Below are positions 1 to 18,409 of a stretch of 64,000 bases of DNA, piece by piece (the stretch's first letter is position 1; each line of letters starts with the position of its first letter). The position numbers were made by a program, and so were the translations under genes. Below the pieces are notes generated by a model. The model had not been told where the DNA came from. It was given only the letters and a program-made list of their open reading frames with translations, and did not search any database. This stretch comes from an uncultured Candidatus Saccharibacteria bacterium (GTDB lineage: Bacteria > Patescibacteriota > Minisyncoccia > UBA6257 > WO2-44-18), in assembly GCA_964637575.1 (NCBI GenBank), contig CAZWVU010000001.1:53009-117008 (forward strand), given 5' to 3'.

Positions 1-297
1 ATTGGGCCGTTTGTAAAAATGCCGGACCGAGGCGAGATAATCAAATTCGTTTACCAAAGAGATACGGAGGAATTTGAAACGATCCCACAGCTTTGGATGC
101 TCCAGCGGCTTTTTTATGTAGGTCACGCCGGGCGACTGAAAATAACCGCCTGCCTTCGCGGCGGCCTCATCCAGCATCGACGTCAGCACCACCACCCGAT
201 AACGCGACGCCAGGTATTCAATATAGTGCGTGCGCAGAAGATCGGAGGTGAAGATGTAGTGGGGGATGCACAGAAAAACAGTTTTATGTGCGGCCAT
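1..297 (-). CDS. Partial CDS (N-terminus in window, continues off the left edge): fourth member of the unassigned GT-B-like paralog family
   Basis: Reverse translation from ATG at 297 gives MAAHKTVFLCIPHYIFTSDLLRTHYIEYLASRYRVVVLTS..., collinear with the N-termini of the 21940-23253 (MKTVFLFLSKEIYALDLLRGDYAKYLSDRYRVVAFV) and 7591-8946 proteins. Not in the ORF track because there is no in-window stop. Confidence 0.5.
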   Translation of the reverse strand, partial: MAAHKTVFLCIPHYIFTSDLLRTHYIEYLASRYRVVVLTSMLDEAAAKAGGYFQSPGVTYIKKPLEHPKLWDRFKFLRISLVNEFDYLASVRHFYKRPN

Positions 298-508
298 ACT
301 TTTGGAGAATTTTTTTAAGGTCCCCCACATTCTTCACTTCCGCCATGTCATTAATATCAAAACGCGTTTTATATTGTTTTTCGAGCTCCTGTATCAGGGC
401 TAGGCCGTTAAACGAATCCCAGCTCGGCGTATTTTCCGGGCTGGTCGCGTCATTGATGGCAGACGGATCGACATTAAAAACTTTTCCTAATATTTGTTCG
501 AGGGTCAT
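284..508 (-). CDS. Acyl carrier protein (phosphopantetheine attachment Ser in WDSFNGLALIQELE)
   Basis: 74 aa, acidic, DSF/DSL-type motif followed by amphipathic helix typical of ACP/PCP. Confidence 0.7.
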   Translation of the reverse strand: MTLEQILGKVFNVDPSAINDATSPENTPSWDSFNGLALIQELEKQYKTRFDINDMAEVKNVGDLKKILQKYGRT

Positions 509-512
509 AGGG

Positions 513-2234
513 TTATTTAGTGGGATTCATTTCCACATCCATCGTGGAAACGTCGCCTGTTTCCATATTCATTTCTTTAGCCCGCAGCACTCTCCGCATA
601 ATCTTGCCGCTTCTGGTCTTGGGGAGTTTTGCAACAAAATCGATTTCGCGCGGCACTTCATGCACCGAAAGATGCTGCTGCACGTATTTCATAATATCGT
701 GCTTCAATGAATCGGCGGCGAGAACGCCCGGCTTCAGAATGATGAATGCTTTAATAATGTTTCCGTAGATATCGTGCGGTTTTCCGATTACACCAGCTTC
801 CGCGACTGCCGGATGGGAAACTAGGGCGCTTTCAATTTCAAACGGACTGATCCGTTCGCCGGCACTTTTGATCATGTCGTCTTCTCTCCCCTGAAACCAG
901 AAATAACCATCCTTATCCTGATAGGCCATATCCCCGGAAATGTACCATTCTTTTTCAAAATAGGACTCGAATTTTTTCTGATTATTCCAGACTGTTTTCA
1001 TAAGCCCCGGCCACGGGATCTTCACGGCCAGACGCCCGATCTGACCCTGAGGCAACTCCTTCGCTTCGTGATCGATGATCGCGGCGGTAATTCCCGGCAA
1101 TGATCTTCCCATCGATCCCTTTTTAATCGGAAGACACCGGTAATTATTGATGAGCTGATGGCCGTTTTCGGTCATATACCAGGAGTCGTGGATGGGGATT
1201 TCCAGATGCTCCATCGTCCAATCGATAAGACTGGGATTGAGCGGCTCTCCGGCGCTGACTATGTGACGCAAATGTTTTAGATTCTCGCGGCCGATAGGAG
1301 CATTATAATAACGCAGAAGCCGGAAGGCGGTAGGCGTGCTGTACCAGACGCTGATATTCATCTTAGCCATAAACTTCACCCATTCAACGGGATGGAAGGC
1401 TCCTTCGTAAAGATGGGCAGCGACACCGAGCAGTAATGGTGCAAAAAAATTATAGACCATGCCAGTGACCCATCCGGGATCGCCCGAGTTCCAATATGCG
1501 TCGTCCGGATGGAGATCGAGGACGTATTGCGCGGTAACGAAGTGCCCGATCATTGCCCGTTGTGCCAGCAGAATTCCTTTTGGCTTGGCGGTCGAGCCGG
1601 AAGTGTAGTGAATGATAAAAGGAGTTTCCAGATCGCCGAATTTGATCACCGAAGCATCGGCCGGACCCTTCAAAAGTTCCTGAACGGGTAAATTGCGTAA
1701 GGACGGGCTGCTCAACTCTGCTGTTCCGTCCGTGACAACATTATGCAAGGTAGGAATATTTTTGAAATCGAGATTTTTCAGCAGCCTCGTATTTACGTAA
1801 ATCCATTCGGCGCCGCAGTCGCCAAGCCGGTCGGTAATGGCATCAGCGCCGAAGGCTTCGAACAAAGGCACGACGACAGCGCCGCACTTGATCGCAGCAA
1901 GCAACACCACCGCATAATCAACGGACTTGGAGGCATAGATACCGAAACGGTCACCCGGCTTGAGTCCCCTGGCCTGCAAAGCTCCGGCCATTATATTGGT
2001 ACGCTCGGCAAGCGTTCGGAACGTGATCCGCTCGACCGCGCCGTCAGCTTTTTGGGCGATCACCGCAGGACGATCTCCCCGTCCCTGGGAAACCTGATAG
2101 TCCGTTATTTCGTAGGCGTAGTTAACTTTGCCGGAAGTATGAAAAGAAAAATTTTTGTGCCATTTTTCCCAGGAAAAATTGCGGCATTCTTTTTCATAAT
2201 TGGTAAAATTCGGCTCCGGCTGCCTGATAGTCAT
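513..2234 (-). CDS. AMP-forming acyl-CoA synthetase (acetyl-CoA synthetase-like short-chain acid ligase)
   Basis: 573 aa; AMP-binding motifs YTSGSTAKPKG, YMTENG, ISGDMAYQDKDGYFWFQGREDDMIKSAGERI. Confidence 0.75.
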   Translation of the reverse strand: MTIRQPEPNFTNYEKECRNFSWEKWHKNFSFHTSGKVNYAYEITDYQVSQGRGDRPAVIAQKADGAVERITFRTLAERTNIMAGALQARGLKPGDRFGIYASKSVDYAVVLLAAIKCGAVVVPLFEAFGADAITDRLGDCGAEWIYVNTRLLKNLDFKNIPTLHNVVTDGTAELSSPSLRNLPVQELLKGPADASVIKFGDLETPFIIHYTSGSTAKPKGILLAQRAMIGHFVTAQYVLDLHPDDAYWNSGDPGWVTGMVYNFFAPLLLGVAAHLYEGAFHPVEWVKFMAKMNISVWYSTPTAFRLLRYYNAPIGRENLKHLRHIVSAGEPLNPSLIDWTMEHLEIPIHDSWYMTENGHQLINNYRCLPIKKGSMGRSLPGITAAIIDHEAKELPQGQIGRLAVKIPWPGLMKTVWNNQKKFESYFEKEWYISGDMAYQDKDGYFWFQGREDDMIKSAGERISPFEIESALVSHPAVAEAGVIGKPHDIYGNIIKAFIILKPGVLAADSLKHDIMKYVQQHLSVHEVPREIDFVAKLPKTRSGKIMRRVLRAKEMNMETGDVSTMDVEMNPTK

Positions 2235-2267
2235 ACCCTCAATAATAGTCGATTTTTAGCTTAAAAT

Positions 2268-2300
2268 CAATTAAAAAATCCACCCCCGAAAGGGTGGATT
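2268..2300 (-). terminator. Intrinsic terminator after the ketopantoate-reductase-like gene
   Basis: 8-bp stem ATCCACCC/GGGTGGAT (2278-2285 / 2292-2299), loop CCGAAA, followed on the minus strand by a U-run (plus-strand A-run 2273-2278). Confidence 0.6.
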
Positions 2301-2311
2301 AGGTGATGTAC

Positions 2312-3280
2312 TTACGACTTCCGGATATCGGACTCAATCGCCTTCATCAGAGAATAGAGCGTCGCGTTGACCGGCACGGAAATGGCATGCTTCTCGGCCA
2401 TTCTCACCACCGCGCCAACGAAACTTTCAAACTCCAGCTTCTTCTTGCGCTTGCGGATATCGTTGAGCGTCGAGCTGATGTACTCGCCGAACGATTTGGC
2501 GGAGCCCAGCACTTCCGCCGTATCCGCCCCGGAAAGACTGACGCCTTCCGCGCGGCCGACTGTCACCACTTCGGCAATCAGACGGTTCAGCATTTCCGCC
2601 GACTCCGTGCATTCGTGCATCCGATTAAAGGGAAGATTGCAGATGGCGGCCGGAATGTTCACGATGCAGTTCCAGAGGAACTTTTTCCAAAGCCGCGTGC
2701 GGATGTCGCGCGGCCGGAAATTCGGAATCCCCGCGTCATCGAACATGTGGTGCAAGGCGTGTGTCCGCTCCGACTCCTGGCCGTCCCATTCGCCGAAGTA
2801 GATCTCGCCTTTGTTCTTGTGCTGAACAATGCCCGCTTCGTCGATGGAAACACCGACGATGGTGAATCCGGGCAGCACCCTCTCAGGGCCGATCACCGCA
2901 GCGATCCGCTCGCAATTGTCGATGCCGTTCTGGAGGGTAAGGATCGCGGTCCGGTCACCGAGCACCGGAAGCATTTGTTCGGCGGCTTCGTCGGTGTCGT
3001 ACGATTTGACCGTGAACAGGACGCAATCGGCGGGCTTTAGCCCATCCATCCGGTCCTTTACGTTCACGTCGCGCACCGCAAAATCGGAATTGACGCTCTT
3101 CACCACGATGCCGTGATCCTTCAGGTGACGGAAATTCCGTCCGCGGGTAATGAATGTGACGTCATGTCCCGCGCGGGCAATCAGGCCGCCATAAAACGAT
3201 CCGATGGCGCCCGCTCCCATTACATGCACCCTCATCAATCTCTCCTTTCCAAAATAATCAAAGTACACTTGCCAGGACAC
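2312..3280 (-). CDS. 2-dehydropantoate 2-reductase family (ApbA/PanE-like 2-ketoacid reductase)
   Basis: 322 aa; N-terminal Rossmann MRVHVMGAGAIGSFYGGLIARAGHDVTFITRG and overall KPR architecture. Confidence 0.6.
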   Translation of the reverse strand: MSWQVYFDYFGKERLMRVHVMGAGAIGSFYGGLIARAGHDVTFITRGRNFRHLKDHGIVVKSVNSDFAVRDVNVKDRMDGLKPADCVLFTVKSYDTDEAAEQMLPVLGDRTAILTLQNGIDNCERIAAVIGPERVLPGFTIVGVSIDEAGIVQHKNKGEIYFGEWDGQESERTHALHHMFDDAGIPNFRPRDIRTRLWKKFLWNCIVNIPAAICNLPFNRMHECTESAEMLNRLIAEVVTVGRAEGVSLSGADTAEVLGSAKSFGEYISSTLNDIRKRKKKLEFESFVGAVVRMAEKHAISVPVNATLYSLMKAIESDIRKS

Positions 3281-3311
3281 GATACTGGATAATTACTGAA
3301 AAATCAAGTCA

Positions 3312-3347
3312 GCAAAAATAAAAACGGCCCGATTGAAATCGGGCCGA
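3312..3347 (-). terminator. Intrinsic terminator after the ICL-family gene
   Basis: 9-bp perfect stem CGGCCCGAT/ATCGGGCCG (3325-3333 / 3338-3346), loop TGAA, U-run on the minus strand from the plus A-run 3314-3324. Confidence 0.65.
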
Positions 3348-3351
3348 ATGA

Positions 3352-4356
3352 TTAGTGAGCGTCTCCTTCGCGGAAACCTTCCGACTGCTTGATCCGCTCC
3401 GCGGCTTCGGGAGAATAGGTCTTCTCCAGCTCCTGATAGTAGGGAGCGTTGCTGAGCTTGTGGTGGCTCTGGGTGGGATGGCCGTCCTTCTGGCGCTCCA
3501 GTTCCCACTGCCCGTGCTCGGCAACCCGCACCAGCGCCTGCATACCGTCCCACATCGCATGGGTAGCCGCGTGGTAGGCGAACAAAGTGATGAAGATGTA
3601 GCGGTAGCCCATCTGCGCCAGCTCTTTGAACGTCATCGGATTTTCCTGCTTGTGCCACTGGAACGAAGAAGAATAATTGAAAGCGAGCGGCAGATCCGGA
3701 TGCGTGCCGCGCACCGCGCCGGCAAACTCTTCGGCTTTCTGCCGGTCGGGAGTGCCGAATTCGCACCAGATGAGATCGGCGCCCGCGTCGGCATACGCAA
3801 TGCCGCGCTCCTTCGCCTTTTCCATACTGCCGCCGACCGCCCCAAGGGAATCGGTTCTCGCGATGACGATGAAATTCCTGTCATTCTCATCGCGGACATC
3901 CAGCGCGGCGCGCAGTTTTCCCAGCGACTCCGCCAGCGGCAGGACTCTCCGGCCCGCCATATGGCCGCAGCGTTTCGGACCCTTCTGATCCTCGATGTGC
4001 ACGCCGGCCACGCCGGTCTTCATGTACTCTTCCATCGTACGCTGCATATGGATGGCGTCGCCGTAACCGTCATCCGCGTCGGCGATCACCGGCGCCGCAT
4101 TCATGTTGTGCGCCTTGGCCGCCAGCTTCAGGGCATCCACCACCCGGTGGGCGGTGTAGACCATTTCAAAACGCTGGATGATGCCGATGTCGGTCACGCC
4201 CCACTGGGCGCTCGCGGTGGAATACCCGCTCAGGTATACCGCCTGATGACCGACCCGCTGGGCGATCTGTGCCCCGACCGCGTCGTAGACTCCCGGCGCG
4301 AACACATAGGGATCGCGCGCCAACTTTTCGCGGAACAGCCTGCTTGCCTGCTTCAT
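3352..4356 (-). CDS. Isocitrate lyase / PEP mutase superfamily C-C lyase (not a PEP mutase)
   Basis: 334 aa; YLSGY, PVIADADDGYG, GVAGVHIEDQKGPKRCGHMAG, IIARTD, YADAGADLI motifs of PF13714-type enzymes. EDQ...KRCGH rather than the PEP-mutase EDKx5NS signature. Confidence 0.65.
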   Translation of the reverse strand: MKQASRLFREKLARDPYVFAPGVYDAVGAQIAQRVGHQAVYLSGYSTASAQWGVTDIGIIQRFEMVYTAHRVVDALKLAAKAHNMNAAPVIADADDGYGDAIHMQRTMEEYMKTGVAGVHIEDQKGPKRCGHMAGRRVLPLAESLGKLRAALDVRDENDRNFIVIARTDSLGAVGGSMEKAKERGIAYADAGADLIWCEFGTPDRQKAEEFAGAVRGTHPDLPLAFNYSSSFQWHKQENPMTFKELAQMGYRYIFITLFAYHAATHAMWDGMQALVRVAEHGQWELERQKDGHPTQSHHKLSNAPYYQELEKTYSPEAAERIKQSEGFREGDAH

Positions 4357-4423
4357 GTGCGTTTCTCCTCAACACGTGAAAAGTTCTGACGGTAATGTAC
4401 CACAAAAAATCAGCCCCGGCAAC

Positions 4424-5473
4424 TCAAAATGGCCGGTCCTGATCGCCGCCGGCCTTCATCGTGTACCAGTCTTTGAGCGGCGCCGGCAGCGAACTTTTCA
4501 CCGCGAAATTCAAATGGGTGCGCTTGAAACTCACCGGGTTGAACAGTATCGGTATTTCCCGATAGGCCGGGTCGTCGCCGTGTACAAAACCCGCGGCGCG
4601 GAGGCCGGCATTGTGGAAATCGCCGCTGGAAAAATAATCGATAAAATCAATGTTCTGCCCGCGGCAATATTCCACCAGCGCGCCGAGCATATACGCCTCG
4701 GCGTCCTTTTCCGCGATGAAATCAATGATCCGCGCGGCGCGGACACCGGTCGGCTGTTCTTTTTTAACATCCTCAAAACGAAGCACGGCGAATGCCTTCA
4801 CGGCATTTCCCTGCTTCGCCACAAACATCGGATACTTCACCAGCGGATTATTCGCAAAACGCCAATTGAGATAGTCAGCGCTGCGATTCACGGTAATCGG
4901 ATAGCGGCCCCGGACTGATGTCCAAAAAACATCCATTTCCTTCCCGAAATGGTGCACCGGTTCAAACGTATAATTCCCCCGAACTGGCGCTGAAGCGGCG
5001 GACGCGGGAAGGTCGTAGAGATTGTTTTTCGGATTAATCACGTACAAAAAACGCGAAAGGTTTTCGCCCTCCCAGCCGGCTTTCATGAAAAGGGGCCAGG
5101 CGGTGTCATTAATGGTGTGATCGATGGAAAGTTCGTTGAGCTTCGCCGCCCGGTCCAAAAGAAGATAGCCATAGCCGAGTGCGCGGAGATTTTTTTTCAC
5201 GATCAGGTTGCACAGCTGGGTGGCCATCACATCCTTCCCGTAATAATTAAAGGGAGTCATGAACAATCCGAACGTCCCAAGCAGATCGCCCCGCTCCGAC
5301 CAGAGACCGAGCGTTGAATATTCTTCCTTATTCCCGTTCGTAAAGCCATCGAACTGCCAGTCGTAATAGGTTTTGTCGGCAAAGATGTGCTCCGGCTTGT
5401 ATTCGGCGGCGTTGAAAACGCGCAATTGTTCCCACTCGGACTTTTTAACCGGTCTTATTTCCATCCCACACAT
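4424..5473 (-). CDS. Unassigned 349-aa protein, candidate acyl/aminoacyl transferase (GNAT/FemAB-like fold suspected)
   Basis: No unambiguous motif. Sits between the carrier-protein gene and the ICL-family gene in the same transcription direction. Confidence 0.25.
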   Translation of the reverse strand: MCGMEIRPVKKSEWEQLRVFNAAEYKPEHIFADKTYYDWQFDGFTNGNKEEYSTLGLWSERGDLLGTFGLFMTPFNYYGKDVMATQLCNLIVKKNLRALGYGYLLLDRAAKLNELSIDHTINDTAWPLFMKAGWEGENLSRFLYVINPKNNLYDLPASAASAPVRGNYTFEPVHHFGKEMDVFWTSVRGRYPITVNRSADYLNWRFANNPLVKYPMFVAKQGNAVKAFAVLRFEDVKKEQPTGVRAARIIDFIAEKDAEAYMLGALVEYCRGQNIDFIDYFSSGDFHNAGLRAAGFVHGDDPAYREIPILFNPVSFKRTHLNFAVKSSLPAPLKDWYTMKAGGDQDRPF

Positions 5474-5528
5474 AACAAAGAGTGCGCTCCGCGCAATCTT
5501 TGCGATACATCATATTTCGACTGTTTTA

Positions 5529-5780
5529 TCATTGGCTCTTTGTTATGTGTGGGATCCATGATTCAACAATATTCGCAATGGTTTCCAGGGAATTAAAATT
5601 TTCCGGCGTGAGCGCTTCCATGCGCGGCACAATCCCGAGACTGCTCTCGATAAATCCGATCAGCTTGATCATGGTAAAGGAATCCAGAACGCCCCTCTCA
5701 ATCAGATTGACGGAAGAGTCCTCGATCTTCTGTTGGGTTTCTTTTTCCAGAAACGCTTTAATGTTTTCTTGTATATTCAT
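5529..5780 (-). CDS. Small phosphopantetheine carrier protein (DltC/PCP-like)
   Basis: 83 aa; GVLDSFTMIKLIGFIESSLGIV with DSF Ser attachment motif. Immediately downstream of an adenylation enzyme. Confidence 0.6.
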   Translation of the reverse strand: MNIQENIKAFLEKETQQKIEDSSVNLIERGVLDSFTMIKLIGFIESSLGIVPRMEALTPENFNSLETIANIVESWIPHITKSQ

Positions 5781-7251
5781 CTTTTAATTTCGGCCGGTCT
5801 ACCTTTCCCGTGCTGGTGCGCGGCAGAATGTCCCGGATCTCGATGATGTGGGGAATCATATAATGCGGCAGGAGCTTTGCCAAATCGGTCTTGATTGTTT
5901 CCGGCGTCATGCCTTTTTCTTTCAGACTGACAAACGCGGCGATTTCAACGCCGCCCGTTTCCGGCGCCTCCACCGCGATTACCCCCGCTTCTTTTATAGA
6001 GGAAAGCGAATAGAGCGCGGCCTCGATATCGCCAAGCTCGATGCGGTTTCCCATCACCTTCACCTGAAAATCTTTCCGGCCGATGAATTCGTAATTGCCG
6101 TCGGGAAGCCGGCGGACCAGATCGCCGGTCTTGTACACCATACCCGCCTTGCCCGGACGCGGATCCGGCACGAACGCTTCCGCGGTTTTTTCCGGATTAT
6201 TCCAGTAGCCCTTGCCAACTCCGGCACCGGCGACATACAGTTCTCCGTCAACGTCGAACACCTCCGCGCCACGCTGGGCTTTTCCGATCGGCACCAGCCT
6301 GGAAAGATCAGCGGGCGGCGCCGGAACGCGGTAGAACGTGCACTGGACGGTCGTCTCGGTCGGTCCATACATATTTATAAATTCTTTTTCCGGATAGGTC
6401 TTCATCCACTCCGCCAGAAACTTTGCCGGGAATCCTTCACCGTTGAAAAATATTTTCTTCACGCTCGCCATCCGTTCCGGCTTCACCAACCCGGCGTTGG
6501 AAAGATATACCATTACCGACGGAACGGAGTCCCAGATGGTAAGCCGGTGGTCTTCGATGAATTTCATGAGCTGGCCGGGAAAAAGCGAAAGCGATTCAGG
6601 CACGAGGTAGAGTGTCGCGGCGGATTTGAACGCGCAGTAGAGATCAAAGGTGGAAAGATCGAAATGGAGCGGCGGGTGCTGGGACATCCGGTCTTCATGG
6701 GTGATGTTGAATTCGTCCACCGCCCATTCGGTCGCGTTAATAACGTTCGCGTGCGTAATCATCACTCCCTTCGGCGTTCCGGTGGAGCCGGAGGTATAAA
6801 GAATGTAGGCAAGATCACCGGAAGAATTTTTGTAATCGAGCGGGGCGGAAGAAAATTCCCGGACAAATTCCCGGTCGTCATCCAGATTTAAAATTGTCCC
6901 GGCAGCGGCGACGGTAGGAAGCGTTTTATTATTGCAGATCACGATTGCCGGCCTGGCGTCGTCGATGATCTGCTTCGCCCGCGCCGCGGGCGCCTGCGGA
7001 TTGAGCGGCACATAGACCGCGTCGGCTTTCAGGATGCCGGCGAGGGCAATCAGCGAGTCGATCGATTTAAAAAGACAGAAGGCCACCCGGTCGCCGCGTG
7101 TTACGCCCAGTTTCTGCAATGCCCGCGCCATCTGATTGCTCCTTTCGTCAAAATCCTGGTAGGAAATAAGTTCGCCACCGAAAACCGCCGCCGGTTTCTC
7201 CGGAAACTTTTTCGCCGATTCGGAAATATAATCCTGAAGCAGGTTGATCAT
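5758..7251 (-). CDS. Stand-alone adenylation enzyme (amino/hydroxy-acid--carrier protein ligase, DltA/NRPS A-domain-like)
   Basis: 497 aa; core motifs YTSGSTGTPKGV (A3), FDLSTFD (A4), NMYGPTETT (A5), YKTGDL (A7), GRKDFQVKVMGNRIELGDIE (A8), PK at the C-terminus (A10). Confidence 0.75.
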   Translation of the reverse strand: MINLLQDYISESAKKFPEKPAAVFGGELISYQDFDERSNQMARALQKLGVTRGDRVAFCLFKSIDSLIALAGILKADAVYVPLNPQAPAARAKQIIDDARPAIVICNNKTLPTVAAAGTILNLDDDREFVREFSSAPLDYKNSSGDLAYILYTSGSTGTPKGVMITHANVINATEWAVDEFNITHEDRMSQHPPLHFDLSTFDLYCAFKSAATLYLVPESLSLFPGQLMKFIEDHRLTIWDSVPSVMVYLSNAGLVKPERMASVKKIFFNGEGFPAKFLAEWMKTYPEKEFINMYGPTETTVQCTFYRVPAPPADLSRLVPIGKAQRGAEVFDVDGELYVAGAGVGKGYWNNPEKTAEAFVPDPRPGKAGMVYKTGDLVRRLPDGNYEFIGRKDFQVKVMGNRIELGDIEAALYSLSSIKEAGVIAVEAPETGGVEIAAFVSLKEKGMTPETIKTDLAKLLPHYMIPHIIEIRDILPRTSTGKVDRPKLKDEYTRKH

Positions 7252-7643
7252 TGTGTTACCGCGATCGCGACCGCGTAATCATGGGTATGCGAAAGGGAAA
7301 CCAGCACCCGGGGCGCCCGGCGGATATTGCGGATTCTGGCGACCGGACGGCCGTCCTTGCGGTTTGAAATTTCAAAATTGCCGGCCTGATACACACTTGC
7401 ATTGAGCGCTTTGGCAATCGCCTCTTTGGCGGCAAAGCGGGCGGCAAAATGCGGATAGGGGTCTTTTTTGGAAAGACAATAGGCGATTTCTTTGGCGGTG
7501 AAAATGCGGCCGTAAAAAGACCGGTTCCGCTGGAATGGCAGCTTCCGGAAACGGCCGACGCTTTCTATATCTACTCCGATATTCTTCATGTTAGGCGATG
7601 CTGTCCCGCAGAAATCCGGCAATACGCTGACCGGCGTGGCCAT
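7248..7643 (-). CDS. acpS: Holo-ACP synthase (4'-phosphopantetheinyl transferase, AcpS type)
   Basis: 131 aa; MKNIGVDIESVGRF...FAAKEAIAKAL typical AcpS. 4-nt overlap with the adenylation gene. Confidence 0.7.
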   Translation of the reverse strand: MATPVSVLPDFCGTASPNMKNIGVDIESVGRFRKLPFQRNRSFYGRIFTAKEIAYCLSKKDPYPHFAARFAAKEAIAKALNASVYQAGNFEISNRKDGRPVARIRNIRRAPRVLVSLSHTHDYAVAIAVTQ

Positions 7644-8946
7644 CCAGTTCGCCGCACTGCTCGCGGACGAGGCGCGCCCGGCCTTCCTCGTCCAGCTCCG
7701 GGTGTTCCAGATAGCGCCGGATCTGGCTGATCAATTCTTCCTCCGACCGGGGATAGGCAATCCCGCCGCTGTTCACCGCATTCCGGTAATGCGTCATCTG
7801 GTAAAAATGCGTCGGTGATTTCGAGAGAAGCTGGCGCTCCTTTACTTCAAAATCAATGTTGATCACCGGCTTGTGGAATACCGCCGCGTCGATACTCATA
7901 CTGGAAGCGTAGCAGATAAAGAGATCGGCGTTGGCGAGCGTGTCGGTCAGTCCCCGGATATCGTCAAAACTCATGTCCCAATCCACGCCGCGGGTGGAGG
8001 AAAAGCGGATGCCGGGACGGTCGTATACAAGATAGGAGCGTTTCCGCAATTCCGATTCGTCCAGAAAATCATTGGGTTGAAAGCGCACGAGAAGCTGGGC
8101 GTTCGGAATCCGCCCCGCGGAAATCGCCGCGTGCAGAAGATCAACGATATCCCAGTCGGAATTGCTGTAGGTTTTTCCCATCGGCGCGTAGACGATTATC
8201 TTTTTTGCCGGATCAAGTCCTTTTTTCGCGCAAAAATCCTTCCGGCTCATCGGCGGGTAATTCACATGCCAGTCATATTGAGGAATGCCGGCCACGAAAA
8301 TATCCCCGGCCTTCATGTCGGCATGCCGGATCGCCTCTTCCTTCACCAGATCATTGAAGACGATCAGCTTGCCGGGGAGAAGCCGCATGATGCCGCGGGC
8401 GGTAAGCTTGTCCCACGAATTGATGAATCCGACCGCGGGCACGCCGCGCCGCTTTGCTTCGCGCAAAAGATCGGTTTCAGTGTCATCGAAAAGATGCGCC
8501 AGAAACACCGCGTCCGGGGAATATTTATCGAAAAATTCACCGAACAGGCCGCTTCCCCCGAAGTGGAAATCAAGCCGGCGGACGATCTGGCGGACGGACC
8601 GGCGGGCCAGCATGCGGTTCAGAAGCCAGTTCGCAGCGTATCCGAGGTAATTTCCGGTTTCCTCCAGAAGCATGCGGCGGCGGAGATCAACTGTGGCGGT
8701 CCGCAGTAAAAGGAATTTCAGATTGCTGAAAAAAGTTTCGCTCCGGCCCGGCGCGCGTTCCGGCGCTACTTCATACACGACATTCCGGCCGGAAAATTCC
8801 TTCCGGTAATATTCGGCCCGCTCCGGCGTCCGTACGAACAGCACCAGGCGCAGCTCCGGATCGGCGGCCAGCGTTTTGTAAATGTCGGTGCGGAGAATGT
8901 TCTTGGCCTCCACTCCCTGAAACAGGGTAATAAAAATAGTACGCAT
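7591..8946 (-). CDS. Unassigned GT-B-like paralog family member (451 aa, SWDKLT motif)
   Basis: Collinear similarity to the 33077-34444 protein: TIFITLFQGVEAKNILRTD / TVFITAFTNFVVRNLLDTD; GVPAVGFINSWDKLTARG / GIPVIGMVRSWDNLTTRG; VAGIPQYD / VVGIPHYD. Confidence 0.5.
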   Translation of the reverse strand: MRTIFITLFQGVEAKNILRTDIYKTLAADPELRLVLFVRTPERAEYYRKEFSGRNVVYEVAPERAPGRSETFFSNLKFLLLRTATVDLRRRMLLEETGNYLGYAANWLLNRMLARRSVRQIVRRLDFHFGGSGLFGEFFDKYSPDAVFLAHLFDDTETDLLREAKRRGVPAVGFINSWDKLTARGIMRLLPGKLIVFNDLVKEEAIRHADMKAGDIFVAGIPQYDWHVNYPPMSRKDFCAKKGLDPAKKIIVYAPMGKTYSNSDWDIVDLLHAAISAGRIPNAQLLVRFQPNDFLDESELRKRSYLVYDRPGIRFSSTRGVDWDMSFDDIRGLTDTLANADLFICYASSMSIDAAVFHKPVINIDFEVKERQLLSKSPTHFYQMTHYRNAVNSGGIAYPRSEEELISQIRRYLEHPELDEEGRARLVREQCGELDGHAGQRIAGFLRDSIA

Positions 8947-8947
8947 G

Positions 8948-9694
8948 TTATTTTACTTTATCGTAGCGGTCGGGTGTGCCGATGTCGTGCACGTAGTCGT
9001 TTACCTGAACCGGATAGCCGTAGTACGGTTCGGAGCGCTTCAGAATATCCGGCAAAAGCTGGTGATCGATCTCGTAATACCGGCCTTCCGGAATGGAGTC
9101 GAGTATTTTTTTATTGAATACGTAGATTCCCTGCATATCATAGAAATCACCCGCCGGCAGCTGCGCGTGCGGTTTCTGGTAGATAGCCTGAAACCGCATT
9201 GCGCCATCCAGCGCGGCCAGGTCGGAATCAAACGAATGTTCGGTCTTCGCGACGACATGAACTCCGAGGCAGGGCTGTTTGCTCCGGTAATATTCGATCA
9301 GCTTCCGGTAATCGACTTTGTTGAACACATCGCCGTAGACGAGAAGGAAGTCTTCCCCGAGTTGGTGTTCGAATTGTTTCAGCCCTCCGGCGGTGCCCAA
9401 GAGAACCGGTTCGTGGGAATAGGTTATCTTCACGCCAAATGCGGAACCGTCGCCGAAATACCCGGTGATCGATTCGGGGAGATAATGGAGATTGATGAAA
9501 ATTTCCCGGATTCCGTGGCGTTTCAGATGCTCGATCTGATGCCACAACAAGGGCCGGTCGCCGATGGGAGCCATCGCTTTCGGCACGGTGTTGGTCAGGG
9601 GGCGCAGCCGCGTCCCCAATCCGGCGCATAAGATAACTGCCTGCATGTGATACAAAGAATACAATAAAAAAGCTCCGATGTCTATCGGAGCCAT
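8948..9694 (-). CDS. Sugar-1-phosphate nucleotidyltransferase (HddC-like, D-glycero-D-manno-heptose 1-phosphate guanylyltransferase candidate)
   Basis: 248 aa; MQAVILCAGLGTRLRPLTNTVPKAMAPI NTP-transferase signature. Co-located with gmhA and the hddA-like kinase. Confidence 0.6.
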   Translation of the reverse strand: MAPIDIGAFLLYSLYHMQAVILCAGLGTRLRPLTNTVPKAMAPIGDRPLLWHQIEHLKRHGIREIFINLHYLPESITGYFGDGSAFGVKITYSHEPVLLGTAGGLKQFEHQLGEDFLLVYGDVFNKVDYRKLIEYYRSKQPCLGVHVVAKTEHSFDSDLAALDGAMRFQAIYQKPHAQLPAGDFYDMQGIYVFNKKILDSIPEGRYYEIDHQLLPDILKRSEPYYGYPVQVNDYVHDIGTPDRYDKVK

Positions 9695-10515
9695 TTTTCA
9701 AAATCGGTCAGGAACTGGCTGATTACTTCGTCGGTTTTGAAGTGCTGGACCATCCTGGAAAATTCGGGGAAAAACTTATACGGCACGGTCACAATGTGGA
9801 CGCCGGCAAGCATGGCGTCACGCATATCCCAGATCGTCCGGATTGAGCCGGCGATGATCTCGCAGCCGAACTTTTCCCGGTCAAACAATGCCCGGGTCCG
9901 GCCGGCCACGGAAACAGGATCGAAATCCTCTTCTCTGGCGGCGCCGCTTGCAAGGAGTTCCCGCGACTTCTGGAGCTGCGCACTGAGAAGCTCCTCGTCG
10001 CCTGGCTTTGCCTTGTTCGCCAGCGGGAAGCTGATCTTCTCCTGGATGACTTTCGGGTTTGCGTCGCGGATCCGGCCCCAGAAAAGACTGGCGTACTTCG
10101 CGCCGGCTTTCGCCGCCCACGCCGCCTGCGACACCGACATGCAGGCCGTGCAGTTCACGCTGATGCCGGACTCCGCAAAAGAACGGATGAGCGCAAGTTC
10201 GTTCCACCCAACCTGAATCTTGATGCTCAACGGATAGTCGAAGGTTTTTTTGAAATGGCGAACCTGTTCTCTGATCTGATCCGGCTCTTTCGCGAATACC
10301 TCAACGCTGAGATGGGGATACTTTCCCTGGATCCTGGAGTATTCCCGTTCGTAGTATTCCTGAAGCACGGCTACGATCTTGCCGATATGCTCCTCGAATT
10401 TGCCTTTCGGTTCTTTCGCGAGAAGCGACGGGTTGGTCGTCACGCCATCCACCCAGCCGGTTTCCAGCGCCTCCCTGATCTCGTCAAGGTTCGCGGTATC
10501 CACAAAGATTTTCAC
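9682..10515 (-). CDS. Transaldolase / fructose-6-phosphate aldolase family (sedoheptulose-7-P supply)
   Basis: MKIFVDTANLDEIREALETGWVDGVTTNPSL is a canonical TalC/FSA N-terminus. 277 aa with a C-terminal extension. Confidence 0.65.
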   Translation of the reverse strand: MKIFVDTANLDEIREALETGWVDGVTTNPSLLAKEPKGKFEEHIGKIVAVLQEYYEREYSRIQGKYPHLSVEVFAKEPDQIREQVRHFKKTFDYPLSIKIQVGWNELALIRSFAESGISVNCTACMSVSQAAWAAKAGAKYASLFWGRIRDANPKVIQEKISFPLANKAKPGDEELLSAQLQKSRELLASGAAREEDFDPVSVAGRTRALFDREKFGCEIIAGSIRTIWDMRDAMLAGVHIVTVPYKFFPEFSRMVQHFKTDEVISQFLTDFEKWLR

Positions 10516-10551
10516 GGAATCTCCTTATCAAAATATCTTCCCATAGAATAC

Positions 10552-10580
10552 ATATAAAAAAGCGGCCCGTAAAGGCCGCT
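10552..10580 (-). terminator. Intrinsic terminator after gmhA
   Basis: Stem AGCGGCC/GGCCGCT (10560-10566 / 10573-10579), loop CGTAAA, U-run on the minus strand (plus A-run 10555-10560). Confidence 0.55.
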
Positions 10581-10591
10581 TCATTGGTGAA

Positions 10592-11236: not shown

Positions 11237-11304
11237 CGGAACTCCTCCAATTCAATGAACTAAGGAACGCCTGTACCTTAATAAAAAAACTGCCGGCGGT
11301 CAAC

Positions 11305-15704: not shown

Positions 15705-15737
15705 AAATCCTCCTTCAATGTTCTAACGGCAAATTAC

Positions 15738-15766
15738 AATAAAAAAACCCCGACGGCAAGTCGGGG
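15738..15766 (-). terminator. Intrinsic terminator after the radical SAM gene
   Basis: Stem CCCCGAC/GTCGGGG (15748-15754 / 15760-15766), loop GGCAA, U-run on the minus strand from the plus A-run 15741-15747. Confidence 0.6.
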
Positions 15767-17299: not shown

Positions 17300-17337
17300 A
17301 TCACCTCCGTGTATTTCTCAATGTGCGGAATTACTGT

Positions 17338-17376
17338 ACAAGAAAAAAAGAAAACTGGCAATTACATGCCAGTTTT
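17338..17376 (-). terminator. Intrinsic terminator overlapping the stop of the GHMP kinase gene
   Basis: 10-bp palindrome AAAACTGGCA / TGCCAGTTTT (17351-17360 / 17367-17376), loop ATTACA containing the stop codon, followed on the minus strand by CUUUUUUUCUUG. Confidence 0.5.
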
Positions 17377-18360: not shown

Positions 18361-18409
18361 AACACTCTCTCTTTCTCAATGTAAAAAAACTATCCCAATA
18401 GTAGCCGAA

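What the first reader, a model, noticed from the sequence alone, without database searches (positions are those of the whole stretch)
284..7643. Carrier-protein based acyl/aminoacyl tailoring module embedded in a glycan island
Sequence shows, co-directional and tightly packed:
- AcpS (PPTase);
- a stand-alone adenylation enzyme with complete A3-A10 motifs;
- an 83-aa carrier protein (DSF Ser) directly downstream;
- an unassigned 349-aa protein;
- an ICL/PEPM-family lyase;
- a ketopantoate-reductase-like 2-ketoacid reductase;
- a short-chain acyl-CoA synthetase and a second 74-aa ACP;
- then immediately the N-terminus of a GT-B-like paralog (1-297).
This is not a Dlt D-alanylation operon: there is no MBOAT DltB and no DltD. 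It is not fatty-acid synthesis: there is no KS/KR/DH/ER. The lyase and reductase pair could build a 2-hydroxy/2-keto acid. That acid would be activated by the CoA ligase or adenylation enzyme, tethered on the carriers, and transferred by the 349-aa protein onto a sugar or amine of the surface glycan. Two independent carrier/activator pairs suggest two different tethered building blocks. I know of no described glycan-decoration pathway with this composition.
Basis: partly seen in the sequence, partly recalled or inferred. Interest (0 to 1): 0.8.

Follow-up and report, generated by a model that had tools for sequence, protein, structure and literature searches.

The report
Carrier-protein acyl donors for glycan decoration
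A tiny-celled (Patescibacteria) bacterium carries, inside a large surface-sugar gene island, two small "carrier protein" systems that most likely hang an amino acid and a short hydroxy-acid onto its surface sugars, using an uncharacterised but widespread double-GNAT transferase family.

Summary
The gene content is real: eight tightly packed minus-strand genes. They are AcpS, a stand-alone adenylation enzyme, carrier CP1, a 349-aa protein, an ICL/PEPM lyase, a ketopantoate-reductase-like enzyme, an acetyl-CoA-synthetase-like ligase and carrier ACP2. TagB/TagF-like transferase paralogs flank them, inside a ~45-kb glycan island of a Patescibacteria (CPR) genome.

It is two modules, not one pathway.

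- **Module 1** (AcpS, A, CP1, 349-aa protein) is conserved in order in at least 10 CPR loci. The adenylation specificity code is nearly invariant (DLFSFNMVQK) and keeps the Asp that binds an alpha-amino group.
- **Module 2** is mosaic. The ligase belongs to a 38-member clade with an altered acyl pocket, near a small carrier in 7 of 7 contexts. KPR–ligase–ACP2 recurs once elsewhere. The lyase is unique here and probably acquired.

Substrates and acceptor remain inferred.

The parts
1..330 (-). N-terminal part of a 455-aa TagF/TagB-like (Glyphos_transf) transferase paralog. The gene runs off the window start and overlaps ACP2 by 47 nt.
   Evidence: The gene call on the identical contig L001 (15144-16511) corresponds to window 330 downwards. 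PF04464 E 3e-12 on the full protein.
284..508 (-). ACP2: a 74-aa acyl-carrier protein. The phosphopantetheine-attachment Ser32 lies in WDSF (codon 413-415).
   Evidence: PF00550 E 1.2e-4, 22.7 bits against a cut-off of 20.8. Nearest solved relatives are ACPs: 2lml at 1e-8, and AcpM. Homologs at 44-63% identity follow FkbH or ACS-like loaders in L012, L026, L067, L068 and L074.
513..2234 (-). ACS-like short-chain acid ligase, predicted to load ACP2.
   Evidence: PRK04319 acetate-CoA ligase model: 670 bits, below the cut-off of 729. It belongs to a separate clade of 38 proteins (64-73% identity); the next relatives are ~50% identical. The clade signature is SWYMTENG / SAGEPLN, against TWWMTETG / SVGEPLN in canonical enzymes. 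A small carrier gene lies nearby in 7 of 7 contexts examined.
2277..2300 (-). Terminator-like hairpin directly after the KPR-like gene.
   Evidence: 10-pair stem followed by a T-run. This is a pattern match only.
2312..3235 (-). Ketopantoate-reductase-family 2-oxoacid reductase. 307 aa from the MRVHVMGAG start; the longest ORF extends to 3280.
   Evidence: PF02558 and PF08546; TIGR00745 255 bits against a cut-off of 141. Nearest solved structures are KPRs, 3hwr at 147 bits. A 59%-identical homolog sits in a KPR-ACS-ACP2 trio in L068.
3325..3346 (-). Terminator-like hairpin directly after the ICL-like gene.
   Evidence: 9-pair stem with 7 GC pairs, followed by a T-run. This is a pattern match only.
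3352..4356 (-). Short (334-aa) isocitrate-lyase/PEP-mutase-family lyase, unique to this locus.
   Evidence: PF13714 1e-39 and PF00463 1.6e-35; all equivalog models fall below their cut-offs. It carries KRCGH, LIWCE, NYSSSFQW and FITL motifs aligned to ICL 3i4e. The nearest homologs are only 56% identical. They are from Rokubacteria, Methylomirabilota and Binatia, where the gene stands alone with a LysR regulator. It is absent from all 60+ related loci. It has the highest GC3 in the block, 0.785.
4424..5473 (-). 349-aa tandem-GNAT protein: predicted carrier-protein-dependent acyl/aminoacyl transferase.
5529..5780 (-). CP1: an 83-aa aminoacyl/peptidyl-type carrier protein. Ser34 lies in LDSF (codon 5679-5681).
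   Evidence: Weak NCBIfam DltC and OlsHI-ACP hits at 2.5e-6. Nearest solved relatives are type II PCPs, PltL, PigG and an aminoacyl carrier protein. The motifs FLEKETQ...LDSF(T/S)M are conserved in 10 CPR loci, always between the A enzyme and the tandem GNAT.
5758..7251 (-). Stand-alone adenylation enzyme, predicted amino acid:CP1 ligase.
   Evidence: TIGR01733 381 bits against a cut-off of 317; DltA models 288-300 bits, below their cut-offs. Best solved matches are NRPS A domains, a Pro-carrier ligase and DltA. The specificity code DLFSFNMVQK is identical in 8 of the 10 CPR-clade sequences.
7248..7589 (-). AcpS-type phosphopantetheinyl transferase, 113 aa; the longest ORF extends to 7643.
   Evidence: PF01648 5e-18; TIGR00556 66 bits against a cut-off of 45. 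The start is taken from the gene call. It lies directly upstream of the A enzyme in L003, L005 and L012-L019.
7591..8946 (-). 451-aa TagB/TagF-like transferase, immediately upstream. It is conserved with module 1.
   Evidence: PF04464 1.8e-5; a BFO_1060-family domain hit at 6e-12, below the cut-off. Homologs at 44-67% identity lie directly upstream of AcpS in L003, L005 and L012-L017. BFO_1060/Tanf_01245 are Pse/Leg-derivative transferases in Tannerella forsythia (PMC5420450).
25519..26469 (-). NodB-type polysaccharide deacetylase: a candidate partner that would free the acceptor amine. It is 20 kb away here but adjacent to the tandem GNAT in most other phyla.
   Evidence: PF01522 1e-22. No TM segment or signal-like segment. 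A homolog lies within 10 kb of the tandem GNAT in 39 of 53 species loci, and within 3 kb on the same strand in 30 of 53.

Best explanation
The block is two carrier-protein-based acyl-donor modules that decorate a cytoplasmic precursor of the cell-surface glycan of a Patescibacteria bacterium.

**Module 1 (conserved).** AcpS phosphopantetheinylates CP1. The DltA/NRPS-like adenylation enzyme activates one particular alpha-amino acid, probably small or polar, and thioesterifies it to CP1. The 349-aa tandem-GNAT protein takes the aminoacyl group from the CP1 arm, which binds in its N-terminal GNAT domain. It passes the group to a sugar acceptor made or used by the neighbouring TagB-like transferases. 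The acceptor is most likely an amino group of a CMP- or NDP-linked amino sugar or nonulosonic-acid-like sugar, exposed by the island's cytoplasmic NodB-type deacetylase.

**Module 2 (accessory, mosaic).** A KPR-family reductase makes a short 2-hydroxy acid from a 2-oxo acid. In this genome the oxo acid is supplied by a horizontally acquired ICL-like lyase, and glyoxylate reduced to glycolate is the most specific guess. A CPR-specific ACS-like ligase with a remodelled acyl pocket loads the acid onto ACP2. In a sister genome an FkbH glyceryl-ACP loader does this job. A GNAT then transfers the acyl group. That GNAT is either the same tandem GNAT or the 149-aa GNAT encoded just beyond the window start.

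**Shown:** gene content, folds, synteny, domain fusions and signature residues.

**Inferred:** every substrate, the acceptor, N- versus O-acylation, and which transferase serves ACP2.
For: **Gene content and domains:**

**Module 1 synteny.** Glyphos_transf-AcpS-A-CP1-tandem GNAT appears in the same order in L003, L005/L016, L012-L015 and L017. AcpS-A-CP1-tandem GNAT appears in L018 and L019. An A-carrier-tandem GNAT arrangement persists even at 32% identity in L007.

**Amino-acid substrate.** Asp235 and Lys517 are present, and the code DLFSFNMVQK is identical in 8 of the 10 CPR-clade sequences. L007, with the code NGVAIGGAYK, lacks the Asp. CP1's nearest solved relatives are aminoacyl/peptidyl carriers.

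**Transferase.**
- The model is high-confidence and the fold is tandem GNAT.
- The pyrophosphate/pantetheine-binding motif R-x-x-G-x-G is invariant in the N-terminal domain.
- Rosetta-stone fusions exist: P0188, P0218, P0228 and P0232 are PP-binding + tandem GNAT; P0249 is AMP-binding + tandem GNAT; P0235 is FkbH + PP-binding + tandem GNAT.
- In Verrucomicrobiota, Acidobacteriota, Planctomycetota, Pseudomonadota and Nanoarchaeota the order is FkbH - ACP2-like carrier - tandem GNAT - Polysacc_deac_1.
- Counts over 53 species loci: a loader within 4 kb in 35, a deacetylase within 10 kb in 39.

**Cytoplasmic location.** Neither the tandem GNAT nor the deacetylase has a TM segment.

**Glycan context.** TagB-like BFO_1060-family paralogs, CTP_transf_3 and Epimerase_2 are present. 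TagB-like proteins transfer Pse/Leg derivatives in T. forsythia.

**Module 2.**
- The ACS clade and its pocket changes.
- A carrier lies near the ACS in 7 of 7 contexts and AcpS in 5 of 7.
- A KPR-ACS-ACP2 trio occurs in L068.
- L012 has FkbH (TIGR01686, 289 bits) plus a 51%-identical ACP2 in the same slot.
- In L067 the order is ACS-ACP2-(125 aa)-tandem GNAT.

**ICL.** ICL-type motifs are present. A foreign origin is suggested by homologs of 56% identity at most, all non-CPR; by the highest GC3 in the block; and by its own terminator-like hairpin.

**Functional precedent.** AlmE/AlmF/AlmG show that an A + carrier + transferase system can decorate a glycoconjugate (PMC4278540).
Against: - No biochemical data exist for any member of the tandem-GNAT family. 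The donor could still be acyl-CoA in some members. P0249 lacks a detectable carrier domain, and L002 has the tandem GNAT with no A enzyme or carrier within 10 kb.
- The acceptor is unknown. No NeuB-type nonulosonate synthase lies in the window. In this genome and its closest relatives the deacetylase is not adjacent.
- The Glyphos_transf paralogs might be genuine polyol-phosphate transferases. In that case O-aminoacylation of a teichoic-acid-like polymer is equally possible.
- All 38 ACS-clade members share the same pocket while their partner enzymes differ: KPR, MaoC+SDR, or an Inos-1-P_synth-like protein. The ligase may therefore load one common acid, and the partners may act before or after loading.
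- The ICL-like enzyme needs isocitrate or a similar substrate, and CPR bacteria are not expected to make it (general knowledge, not tested here). It is as close to dimethylmalate lyase and oxaloacetate hydrolase as to ICL.
- The terminator-like hairpins after ICL and KPR could mean these two genes are expressed independently of the module.
Confidence: 0.55

Rival explanations
1. The lyase and reductase build one 2-hydroxy/2-oxo acid. Either ligase activates it, both carriers tether it, and the 349-aa protein transfers it.
For: All eight genes are co-directional and tightly packed. KPR-ACS-ACP2 recurs as a unit. Tandem GNATs do follow ACS-ACP2 in L067 and FkbH-ACP in many phyla.
Against: Module 1 is conserved without any of ICL, KPR, ACS or ACP2 in nine or more loci. 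The A enzyme keeps Asp235 and an invariant amino-acid-type code. CP1 and ACP2 belong to different carrier types. Terminator-like hairpins separate ICL and KPR from their neighbours.
Confidence: 0.1
2. A cytoplasmic, Dlt-like O-aminoacylation of a teichoic-acid-like polyol-phosphate polymer. The TagF-like paralogs are true glycerol/ribitol-phosphate transferases, and the tandem GNAT esterifies a polymer hydroxyl with the CP1-borne amino acid. It would replace DltB/DltD.
For: The A enzyme and CP1 score best or near-best against DltA and DltC models (300 bits; E 2.5e-6). A Glyphos_transf gene lies immediately upstream of AcpS in all close relatives. PF04464 is the teichoic-acid transferase family.
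Against: The DltA and DltC equivalog cut-offs are missed by a wide margin. No TagD-type glycerol-3-phosphate cytidylyltransferase was detected. The cytidylyltransferases present are CTP_transf_3 (CMP-sugar type) and sit beside Epimerase_2. TagB-like BFO_1060-family proteins transfer nonulosonic acids. The family's strongest partner outside the CPR is an N-deacetylase, which points to an amine acceptor.
Confidence: 0.15
3. Module 2 is not a glycan module. ICL, KPR and ACS are ordinary central-metabolism enzymes (glyoxylate/propionate metabolism, pantoate synthesis, acetate activation) that happen to be inserted in the island.
For: The closest ICL homologs are stand-alone genes with a LysR regulator, next to MDH, fumarase and IDH genes in L009. 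KPR passes the TIGR00745 cut-off and the ACS is close to the acetate-CoA ligase cut-off. ICL and KPR each have their own terminator-like hairpin.
Against: The ACS belongs to a clade with changed acyl-pocket residues. That clade sits near small carriers in 7 of 7 glycan-island contexts and near AcpS in 5 of them. The KPR-ACS-ACP2 order is conserved in L068. The ACS stop codon is 4 nt from the ACP2 start. An FkbH loader occupies the same slot in L012.
Confidence: 0.12
4. The 349-aa protein is a FemABX/MprF-like aminoacyl-tRNA-dependent transferase, or a plain acetyl-CoA N-acetyltransferase, and its adjacency to the carrier is incidental.
Against: There is no FemAB or Acetyltransf_6 hit. The top fold matches are NMT and Eis-type proteins, not Fem. 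The family repeatedly occurs as natural fusions to PP-binding domains and loaders. The order carrier then tandem GNAT is conserved across phyla.
Confidence: 0.08

Closest known systems
AlmE/AlmF/AlmG glycine modification of Vibrio cholerae lipid A (PMC4278540)
   Same: A three-part logic: a stand-alone adenylation enzyme loads an amino acid on a small phosphopantetheinylated carrier, and a dedicated cytoplasmic-face transferase moves it onto a surface glycoconjugate. There is no DltB or DltD.
   Different: AlmG is a lipid A acyltransferase-superfamily membrane protein and the acceptor is lipid A. Here the transferase is a soluble tandem GNAT, the context is TagB-like/CMP-sugar glycan genes, a dedicated AcpS is encoded, and a second acyl module is attached.
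Dlt D-alanylation system (DltA-D)
   Same: A DltA-like adenylation enzyme and a DltC-like carrier, next to teichoic-acid-family (PF04464) transferases.
   Different: The DltA and DltC equivalog cut-offs are not reached. There is no MBOAT DltB and no DltD. All components here are predicted to be cytoplasmic.
FkbH-type glyceryl-ACP loaders (TIGR01686), and the FkbH-domain and ACP genes noted in flagellin glycosylation islands of Campylobacter jejuni (cj1302) and Aeromonas (PMC7099621, PMC7874193)
   Same: Carrier-tethered short hydroxyacyl donors encoded among nonulosonic-acid or glycan genes. In relatives, and in the fusion protein P0235, FkbH + ACP feed the same tandem-GNAT family. L012 has FkbH + ACP2 where the window has ICL-KPR-ACS + ACP2.
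   Different: The window itself has no FkbH. Its ACP2 loader is an ACS-like ligase fed by a KPR-like reductase. In the cited islands the functions are annotations only, and no tandem GNAT has been reported there.
Eis-type and other tandem GNAT acyltransferases; N-myristoyltransferase
   Different: Sequence identity is 9-13%. The donor predicted here is a carrier-protein thioester rather than acyl-CoA. The Eis C-terminal SCP2-like domain is absent.
Isocitrate lyase / methylisocitrate lyase (ICL/PEPM superfamily) and ketopantoate reductase (PanE/ApbA)
   Same: Superfamily membership, the catalytic KRCGH loop and ICL-like C-terminal motifs. The KPR-like protein has the KPR two-domain architecture.
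   Different: The lyase is 334 aa against ~430 aa for ICL, and falls below every equivalog cut-off. The location in a glycan island next to an ACP loader is unlike either enzyme's normal context.

Membership tests
Dlt D-alanylation operon | DltA equivalog (D-alanine--D-alanyl carrier protein ligase) | tested here: not met
   TIGR01734 scores 288 bits against a cut-off of 559.85. NF003417 scores 300 against 476.
Dlt D-alanylation operon | DltC equivalog carrier | tested here: not met
   NF003464 scores 27.4 bits against a cut-off of 68. TIGR01688 scores 20.5 against 52.35.
Dlt D-alanylation operon | MBOAT DltB and DltD encoded with DltA/DltC | tested here: not met
   No MBOAT or DltD domain appears in any gene from 284 to 19210, nor in the related loci's gene tables.
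AlmEFG-type aminoacyl decoration | Stand-alone A enzyme plus small carrier encoded together | tested here: met
   TIGR01733 scores 381 bits against a cut-off of 317. CP1 overlaps the A gene by 23 nt.
AlmEFG-type aminoacyl decoration | AlmG-type (lipid A acyltransferase superfamily) transferase | tested here: not met
   No such domain is present. The adjacent transferase is a tandem GNAT.
GNAT superfamily, tandem-GNAT architecture | Two GNAT folds in one chain | tested here: met
GNAT superfamily, tandem-GNAT architecture | R/Q-x-x-G-x-G/A pantetheine-pyrophosphate binding motif | tested here: met
   R97, G100 and G102 are invariant in 37 sequences. PF00583 scores 22.8 bits against a cut-off of 20.7, a marginal pass.
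GNAT superfamily, tandem-GNAT architecture | Acyl transfer from a thioester donor | not testable with these tools
   This needs an enzyme assay. The fusions to PP-binding domains are only indirect support.
FemABX peptidyltransferases | FemAB / Acetyltransf_6 sequence family; aminoacyl-tRNA donor | tested here: not met
Isocitrate lyase (equivalog) | Score above the curated cut-off; ~430-aa architecture | tested here: not met
   TIGR01346 scores 146.9 against 275.9. NF011645 scores 157 against 562. The protein is 334 aa.
Isocitrate lyase (equivalog) | Catalytic K-K/R-C-G-H loop and C-terminal N-x-S-x-S-F-x-W / F-I-T motifs | tested here: met
   KRCGH, LIWCE, NYSSSFQW and FITL align to 3i4e. The roles of these residues are from memory of the M. 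tuberculosis ICL structure.
Methylisocitrate lyase PrpB | Score above the curated cut-off | tested here: not met
   TIGR02317 scores 157.4 against 354.4. PrpB structures align only to residues 5-215.
PEP mutase / phosphonate pathway | PEP mutase equivalog plus phosphonopyruvate decarboxylase nearby | tested here: not met
   TIGR02320 scores 79.8 against 319.55. No decarboxylase is found in the block.
2-dehydropantoate 2-reductase (PanE/ApbA) | Subfamily model cut-off | tested here: met
   TIGR00745 scores 254.9 against 141.35. The best equivalog, NF005091, scores 210.7 against 252 and is not met.
2-dehydropantoate 2-reductase (PanE/ApbA) | Pantothenate pathway context (PanB/PanC/PanD) | tested here: not met
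   None of these genes is in the window's scanned genes. The homolog in L068 is again next to ACS-ACP2.
Acetate--CoA ligase | Equivalog cut-off and canonical acetate pocket (TWW..., SVGEP) | tested here: not met
   NF003313 scores 669.9 against 729. The pocket motifs are changed to SWY and SAGEP in the whole clade. The mapping of these motifs to pocket residues is from memory of the S. enterica Acs structure.
Type II fatty-acid or polyketide synthesis | KS, AT, DH, ER enzymes with the ACP | tested here: not met
   None is present in 284-19210.
AcpS-type PPTase | PF01648 / TIGR00556 domain | tested here: met
   PF01648 scores 65.6 bits against a cut-off of 25. TIGR00556 scores 66.3 against 45.35. 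The acpS equivalog_domain TIGR00516 scores 55.1 against 59.8, narrowly missed.

The most novel reading that the evidence does not exclude
The 349-aa protein would represent a large, unnamed family of tandem-GNAT enzymes, about 9,600 representative clusters spread from CPR bacteria and DPANN archaea to Verrucomicrobiota, Planctomycetota, Acidobacteriota and Pseudomonadota. In this reading the family forms the transferase core of a general 'de-N-acetylate and re-acylate' editing system for nonulosonic-acid-like or amino sugars. The new N-acyl group is delivered on a carrier protein, and interchangeable loaders set its identity: an A domain gives aminoacyl, FkbH gives glyceroyl, and an ACS-like ligase gives a short hydroxyacyl such as glycolyl. 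That would supply the missing genetic basis for N-glyceroyl, N-glycolyl and N-aminoacyl groups on bacterial pseudaminic and legionaminic acids. It would also show that ultra-small CPR cells invest in combinatorial surface-glycan chemistry.
Probability: 0.35. Interest if true: 0.78.

Novelty: new variant of a known kind. Interest (0 to 1): 0.6.

Why it matters
Bacterial surface sugars, nonulosonic acids above all, carry unusual N-acyl groups: glyceroyl, glycolyl, hydroxybutyryl and aminoacyl. These groups shape immune recognition and phage binding. The enzymes that install them are mostly unknown. A 2017 study of Tannerella forsythia calls the genetic basis of the N-glyceroyl group 'a major challenge' (PMC5378307).

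This locus and its relatives point to a concrete, testable enzyme set:
- a loader (A domain, FkbH or ACS-like ligase);
- a carrier protein;
- a tandem-GNAT transferase;
- often a NodB-type deacetylase.

The transferase family has no specific Pfam or NCBIfam model, and I found no literature on it. It has thousands of members. It occurs in at least one cultured organism, Psychrobacter sp. AOP7-C1-14 (L064), where genetics is possible.

For CPR biology, the locus shows that genomes which generally lack fatty-acid synthesis still keep AcpS and carrier proteins, apparently for glycan tailoring.

Tried and rejected
- **Dlt operon:** rejected. The equivalog cut-offs are missed, and there is no DltB or DltD.
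- **Fatty-acid or polyketide synthesis:** rejected. There are no KS, DH or ER domains.
- **FemAB / Acetyltransf_6 idea for the 349-aa protein:** rejected.
- **Phosphonate (PEP mutase) pathway for the lyase:** rejected.
- **PDB sequence search with the family profile:** gave only weak single-GNAT hits, E 0.002 or worse. Fold comparison was needed.
- **Neighbourhoods of the closest ICL homologs** (L009-L011): central-metabolism contexts with no carrier or glycan genes. They give no help on the role here beyond suggesting horizontal acquisition.
- **Metagenome scan with the KPR-like protein:** returned one informative locus (L068) and four distant (~30% identity) KPRs. In those four only the KPR itself matched any window protein.
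- **Foldseek against AFDB50:** could not be run because the library is unavailable. I therefore could not look for family members in named model organisms.
- **Literature searches that returned nothing:** 'FkbH + acyl carrier protein + O-antigen', 'Patescibacteria + nonulosonic' and 'tetronate + perosamine + acyl carrier protein + Vibrio cholerae'. The V. cholerae O1 rfbKLMNO tetronate-ACP precedent that I recall could therefore not be verified and is not used as evidence.
- **Amino acid identity:** I could not predict it from the code DLFSFNMVQK. It matches no code I can recall with confidence.
- **Isocitrate supply:** I could not test whether the genome can supply isocitrate.

Full report
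**1. The observation**

All eight genes are present on the minus strand and closely packed. Domain scans confirm each assignment.

| Gene | Coordinates | Size | Key evidence |
|---|---|---|---|
| AcpS-type PPTase | 7248-7589 | 113 aa | PF01648, E 5e-18 |
| Adenylation enzyme | 5758-7251 | 497 aa | TIGR01733 381 bits, cut-off 317 |
| Carrier CP1 | 5529-5780 | 83 aa | Ser34 in LDSF |
| Unassigned protein | 4424-5473 | 349 aa | marginal GNAT hit only |
| ICL/PEPM protein | 3352-4356 | 334 aa | KRCGH motif |
| KPR-family reductase | 2312-3235 | 307 aa | TIGR00745 255 bits, cut-off 141 |
| ACS-like ligase | 513-2234 | 573 aa | PRK04319 670 bits, cut-off 729 |
| Carrier ACP2 | 284-508 | 74 aa | Ser32 in WDSF |

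Three coordinates need small corrections. An identical public contig (L001) puts the AcpS start at 7589. It gives the KPR a length of 307 aa rather than 322 aa. It also shows that the next gene, starting at window 330, is a 455-aa Glyphos_transf (TagF/TagB-like) protein.

The block sits in a ~45-kb co-directional glycan island. The island holds:
- four Glyphos_transf paralogs;
- two CTP_transf_3 cytidylyltransferases;
- Epimerase_2, a NodB-type deacetylase and a formyltransferase, with SHMT and FolD nearby;
- a Wzx-like flippase, GT2/GT4 enzymes and methyltransferases;
- a heptose-like NDP-sugar route.

Housekeeping genes begin at ~46 kb.

The organism is a Patescibacteria (CPR) bacterium. Close homologs come from Parcubacteria-, Harrisonbacteria- and 'Saccharibacteria'-labelled MAGs.

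**2. The 349-aa protein**

The first sequence search found only 55 relatives among 5.8 billion proteins. Nearly all come from CPR bacteria, and they are annotated as hypothetical or GNAT.

A 37-sequence alignment shows three invariant features:
- R97-x-x-G100-x-G102, the GNAT cofactor-binding loop;
- a YLNWRY motif;
- K-G-G-D-x-D-R at the extreme C-terminus.

Fem proteins are not among the top matches. No FemAB or Acetyltransf_6 model hits the sequence.

A profile search of 1.84 billion cluster representatives shows that the family is in fact large. It finds 9,583 clusters at E<=1e-3 and 364 at E<=1e-30. No specific NCBIfam or Pfam model covers the family.

Several members are natural fusions:
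- PP-binding + tandem GNAT (P0188, P0218, P0228, P0232);
- AMP-binding + tandem GNAT (P0249);
- FkbH (TIGR01686, 287 bits) + PP-binding + tandem GNAT (P0235).

These fusions are the strongest evidence that the family takes its acyl group from a carrier protein.

**3. Conservation of the neighbourhood**

*Close CPR relatives.* The order Glyphos_transf - AcpS - A enzyme - CP1 - tandem GNAT is kept at 42-60% identity in L003, L005/L016, L012-L015 and L017. The order AcpS - A - CP1 - tandem GNAT is kept at 37-39% identity in L018 and L019. L007 has an A - carrier - tandem GNAT arrangement even at 32% identity. None of these loci has ICL, KPR or the ACS-like ligase.

*A scan of one genome per species.* This gave 53 loci from CPR bacteria, Nanoarchaeota, Verrucomicrobiota, Acidobacteriota, Planctomycetota, Chloroflexota and Pseudomonadota.

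| Feature near the tandem GNAT | All 53 loci | 30 loci with >=4 kb on both sides |
|---|---|---|
| AMP-binding or FkbH loader within 4 kb | 35 | 23 |
| Polysacc_deac_1 homolog within 10 kb | 39 | 26 |
| Polysacc_deac_1 within 3 kb, same strand | 30 | 17 |
| CTP_transf_3 or Epimerase_2 within 10 kb | not counted | 18 |

In the 30 loci with a same-strand deacetylase within 3 kb, it usually lies immediately downstream of the tandem GNAT.

The typical non-CPR arrangement is FkbH - ACP2-like carrier - tandem GNAT - deacetylase. That is the gene order frozen into the fusion protein P0235.

The tandem GNAT and the window's deacetylase lack TM segments. The chemistry is therefore cytoplasmic, unlike Dlt.

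**4. Module 1 substrate**

I read the ten specificity-pocket positions by motif anchoring to GrsA-PheA. The numbering is from memory; the alignment is.

The code is DLFSFNMVQK. It is identical in 8 of the 10 CPR-clade sequences. It retains Asp235 and Lys517, the residues that hold the alpha-amino and carboxylate groups. L007's enzyme, with the code NGVAIGGAYK, lacks the Asp and presumably loads a different kind of acid.

CP1's closest solved relatives are type II peptidyl and aminoacyl carriers. The enzyme resembles DltA (300 bits) but is far below the DltA cut-offs.

I conclude that the donor is an alpha-amino acid. I cannot say which one.

**5. Module 2**

*The ligase.* It belongs to a sharply separated clade of 38 proteins at 64-73% identity. 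The next relatives are Bacillus-type acetate-CoA ligases at ~50% identity.

Every member of the clade has SWYMTENG, VTGMVYNFF and SAGEPLN. Canonical enzymes have TWWMTETG, VTGTSYGIF and SVGEPLN. By my recollection of the S. enterica Acs structure, these positions include the acetate-pocket Trp and Val. The changes (Trp to Tyr, Val to Ala) would enlarge and polarise the pocket.

In all seven contexts examined the ligase lies within a few kb of a small carrier gene, in a CPR glycan island. These are the window, L065-L068, L073 and L074. AcpS is nearby in five of the seven.

*Its partner enzymes vary:*
- KPR in the window and in L068, where KPR (59%) - ACS (68%) - ACP2 (63%) are in the same order;
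- MaoC dehydratase plus SDR in L067;
- an Inos-1-P_synth-like enzyme in L073 and L074.

*The slot.* In the sister locus L012, the position after the tandem GNAT holds an FkbH protein (TIGR01686, 289 bits) and a 51%-identical ACP2. ICL-KPR-ACS is therefore best read as one of several interchangeable ways of putting a short oxygenated acyl group on ACP2.

*The lyase.* It occurs in no other locus. Its nearest homologs are 56% identical or less. They are 323-aa proteins of Rokubacteria, Methylomirabilota and Binatia, encoded next to a LysR regulator and in one case near MDH, fumarase and IDH genes.

The lyase has the highest GC3 of the block, 0.785. Both it and the KPR gene are followed by terminator-like hairpins. 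This fits a recent insertion.

Its C-terminal half aligns to true ICLs and keeps LIWCE, NYSSSFQW and FITL. In M. tuberculosis ICL these motifs contribute to succinate and glyoxylate binding (from memory).

The most specific guess is therefore isocitrate to glyoxylate, then glycolate, then glycolyl-ACP2. That guess is weak for two reasons. Dimethylmalate lyase and oxaloacetate hydrolase score equally well. The source of isocitrate in a CPR cell is unknown.

**6. Which transferase serves ACP2?**

Tandem GNATs follow ACP2-type carriers directly in L026, in L067 and in the FkbH-type loci.

The window's genome and L012 each have two carriers. Each also has a 149-151-aa single GNAT next to a Glyphos_transf gene just after ACP2. 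L068 and L074 have the small GNAT but no tandem GNAT in the stretch seen.

A one-carrier-one-transferase arrangement is plausible: CP1 to the tandem GNAT, and ACP2 to the small GNAT. It is not shown. L003 has the small GNAT without ACP2.

**7. The acceptor**

Three lines of evidence favour an amino group on a nucleotide-activated amino sugar or nonulosonate-type sugar:
- The flanking Glyphos_transf proteins hit the BFO_1060 family domain. Its founding members transfer Pse and Leg derivatives in Tannerella forsythia (PMC5420450).
- CMP-sugar-type cytidylyltransferases and 2-epimerases accompany the cassette.
- The family's commonest partner is an N-deacetylase.

A 2026 preprint reports low-abundance CMP-nonulosonates with a free amine, which are possible intermediates of this kind.

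Two points count against this. No NeuB is present in the window. In this genome the deacetylase lies 20 kb away.

O-aminoacylation of a TagF-made polyol-phosphate polymer remains a live alternative.

**8. Comparison with what is known**

In mechanism, the closest system is AlmEFG of V. cholerae: an A enzyme, a carrier and a dedicated transferase that decorate lipid A with glycine (PMC4278540). The next closest is Dlt. This locus differs from both in four ways:
- the transferase superfamily is a soluble tandem GNAT;
- the location is cytoplasmic;
- the context is glycan genes, not lipid A or lipoteichoic acid;
- the loader is modular.

ACP, AMP-ligase and FkbH-domain genes have been noticed in Aeromonas and Campylobacter flagellin glycosylation islands, but without functional assignment. 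The enzymes that install N-glyceroyl and N-glycolyl groups on nonulosonic acids were described as unknown.

I found no paper that describes the tandem-GNAT family.

**9. Verdict**

- *Supported:* a carrier-based tailoring system, the glycan embedding, two donors, and the 349-aa protein as transferase.
- *Not supported:* the single integrated pathway, and a hydroxy-acid role for the adenylation enzyme.

This is a new variant of a known kind of system. Its interest is moderate to high because it points to a large, uncharacterised and testable enzyme family. All substrate and acceptor assignments remain inference.

Noticed in passing
window 8948-18360 (minus strand): This looks like a heptose-like or higher-sugar NDP-sugar route. 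It comprises an NTP_transferase, a TAL_FSA aldolase, a SIS isomerase, SDR/epimerases, a GFO_IDH_MocA oxidoreductase, NUDIX, a B12-binding radical SAM enzyme and a GHMP kinase. A similar set (GHMP kinase, SIS, HAD, TAL_FSA) lies next to AcpS and the ACS-like ligase in L073.
   Followed up: partly
window 19207-21045 (minus strand): A 612-aa polytopic membrane protein with a soluble C-terminal domain and no Pfam or NCBIfam hit. Homologs at 34-54% identity recur in the related islands (L002, L003, L005, L012, L014, L067). It may be an unrecognised glycan polymerase, ligase or GT-C-like enzyme.
   Followed up: partly
window 23253-24065, 26457-27419, 30282-32325: A formyltransferase lies together with SHMT, FolD and a D-2-hydroxyacid dehydrogenase inside the island. 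This suggests a locally supplied formyl-THF pool for an N-formyl sugar. The same SHMT/FolD/2-Hacid_dh set occurs in L002.
   Followed up: no
window 4424-4450 (C-terminus of the 349-aa protein): The motif Y-T-x-K-G-G-D-x-D-R-P is invariant and lies at the extreme C-terminus of the tandem-GNAT family. The best fold match is N-myristoyltransferase, where (from memory) the C-terminal carboxylate acts in catalysis. The last 10 residues are the least confident part of the model (pLDDT 62).
   Followed up: no
window 2277-2300 and 3325-3346: Strong terminator-like hairpins directly follow the KPR-like and ICL-like genes. Those two genes also have the highest GC3 of the block (0.75-0.79, against 0.57 for the ligase). 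This is consistent with recent insertion of these two genes.
   Followed up: partly
L007 7096-11902: In a distant relative, two sulfotransferase-family genes and NeuB flank the A-carrier-tandem GNAT cassette. Its A enzyme lacks Asp235 (code NGVAIGGAYK). The cassette has apparently been re-tooled for a non-amino-acid donor in a sulfated glycan.
   Followed up: no
L073 8739-9797 and L074 5946-6998: A myo-inositol-1-phosphate-synthase-like protein (PF01658) is encoded directly next to the ACS-like ligase in two CPR islands. This is a third kind of partner enzyme for that ligase clade, and its role is unknown.
   Followed up: no
L064 (Psychrobacter sp. AOP7-C1-14) and L060 (Desulfovibrio MAG): Members of the tandem-GNAT family occur in a cultured Psychrobacter. 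There the gene sits with FkbH upstream, a deacetylase downstream, and CTP_transf_3 and Epimerase_2 nearby. This organism is a possible experimental handle.
   Followed up: no
window 46124-49885 (minus strand): A 1,253-aa protein lies just outside the island. Its only hit is a peptidoglycan-binding domain, so it may be a large surface protein and a candidate glycosylation target.
   Followed up: no
window 1-45000: There are five TagB/TagF-like paralogs in one island. Four are in the window and one more is a 453-aa BFO_1060-like protein beyond the window start in L001. No NeuB-type synthase was seen in the window, although two CMP-sugar-type cytidylyltransferases are present.
   Followed up: partly
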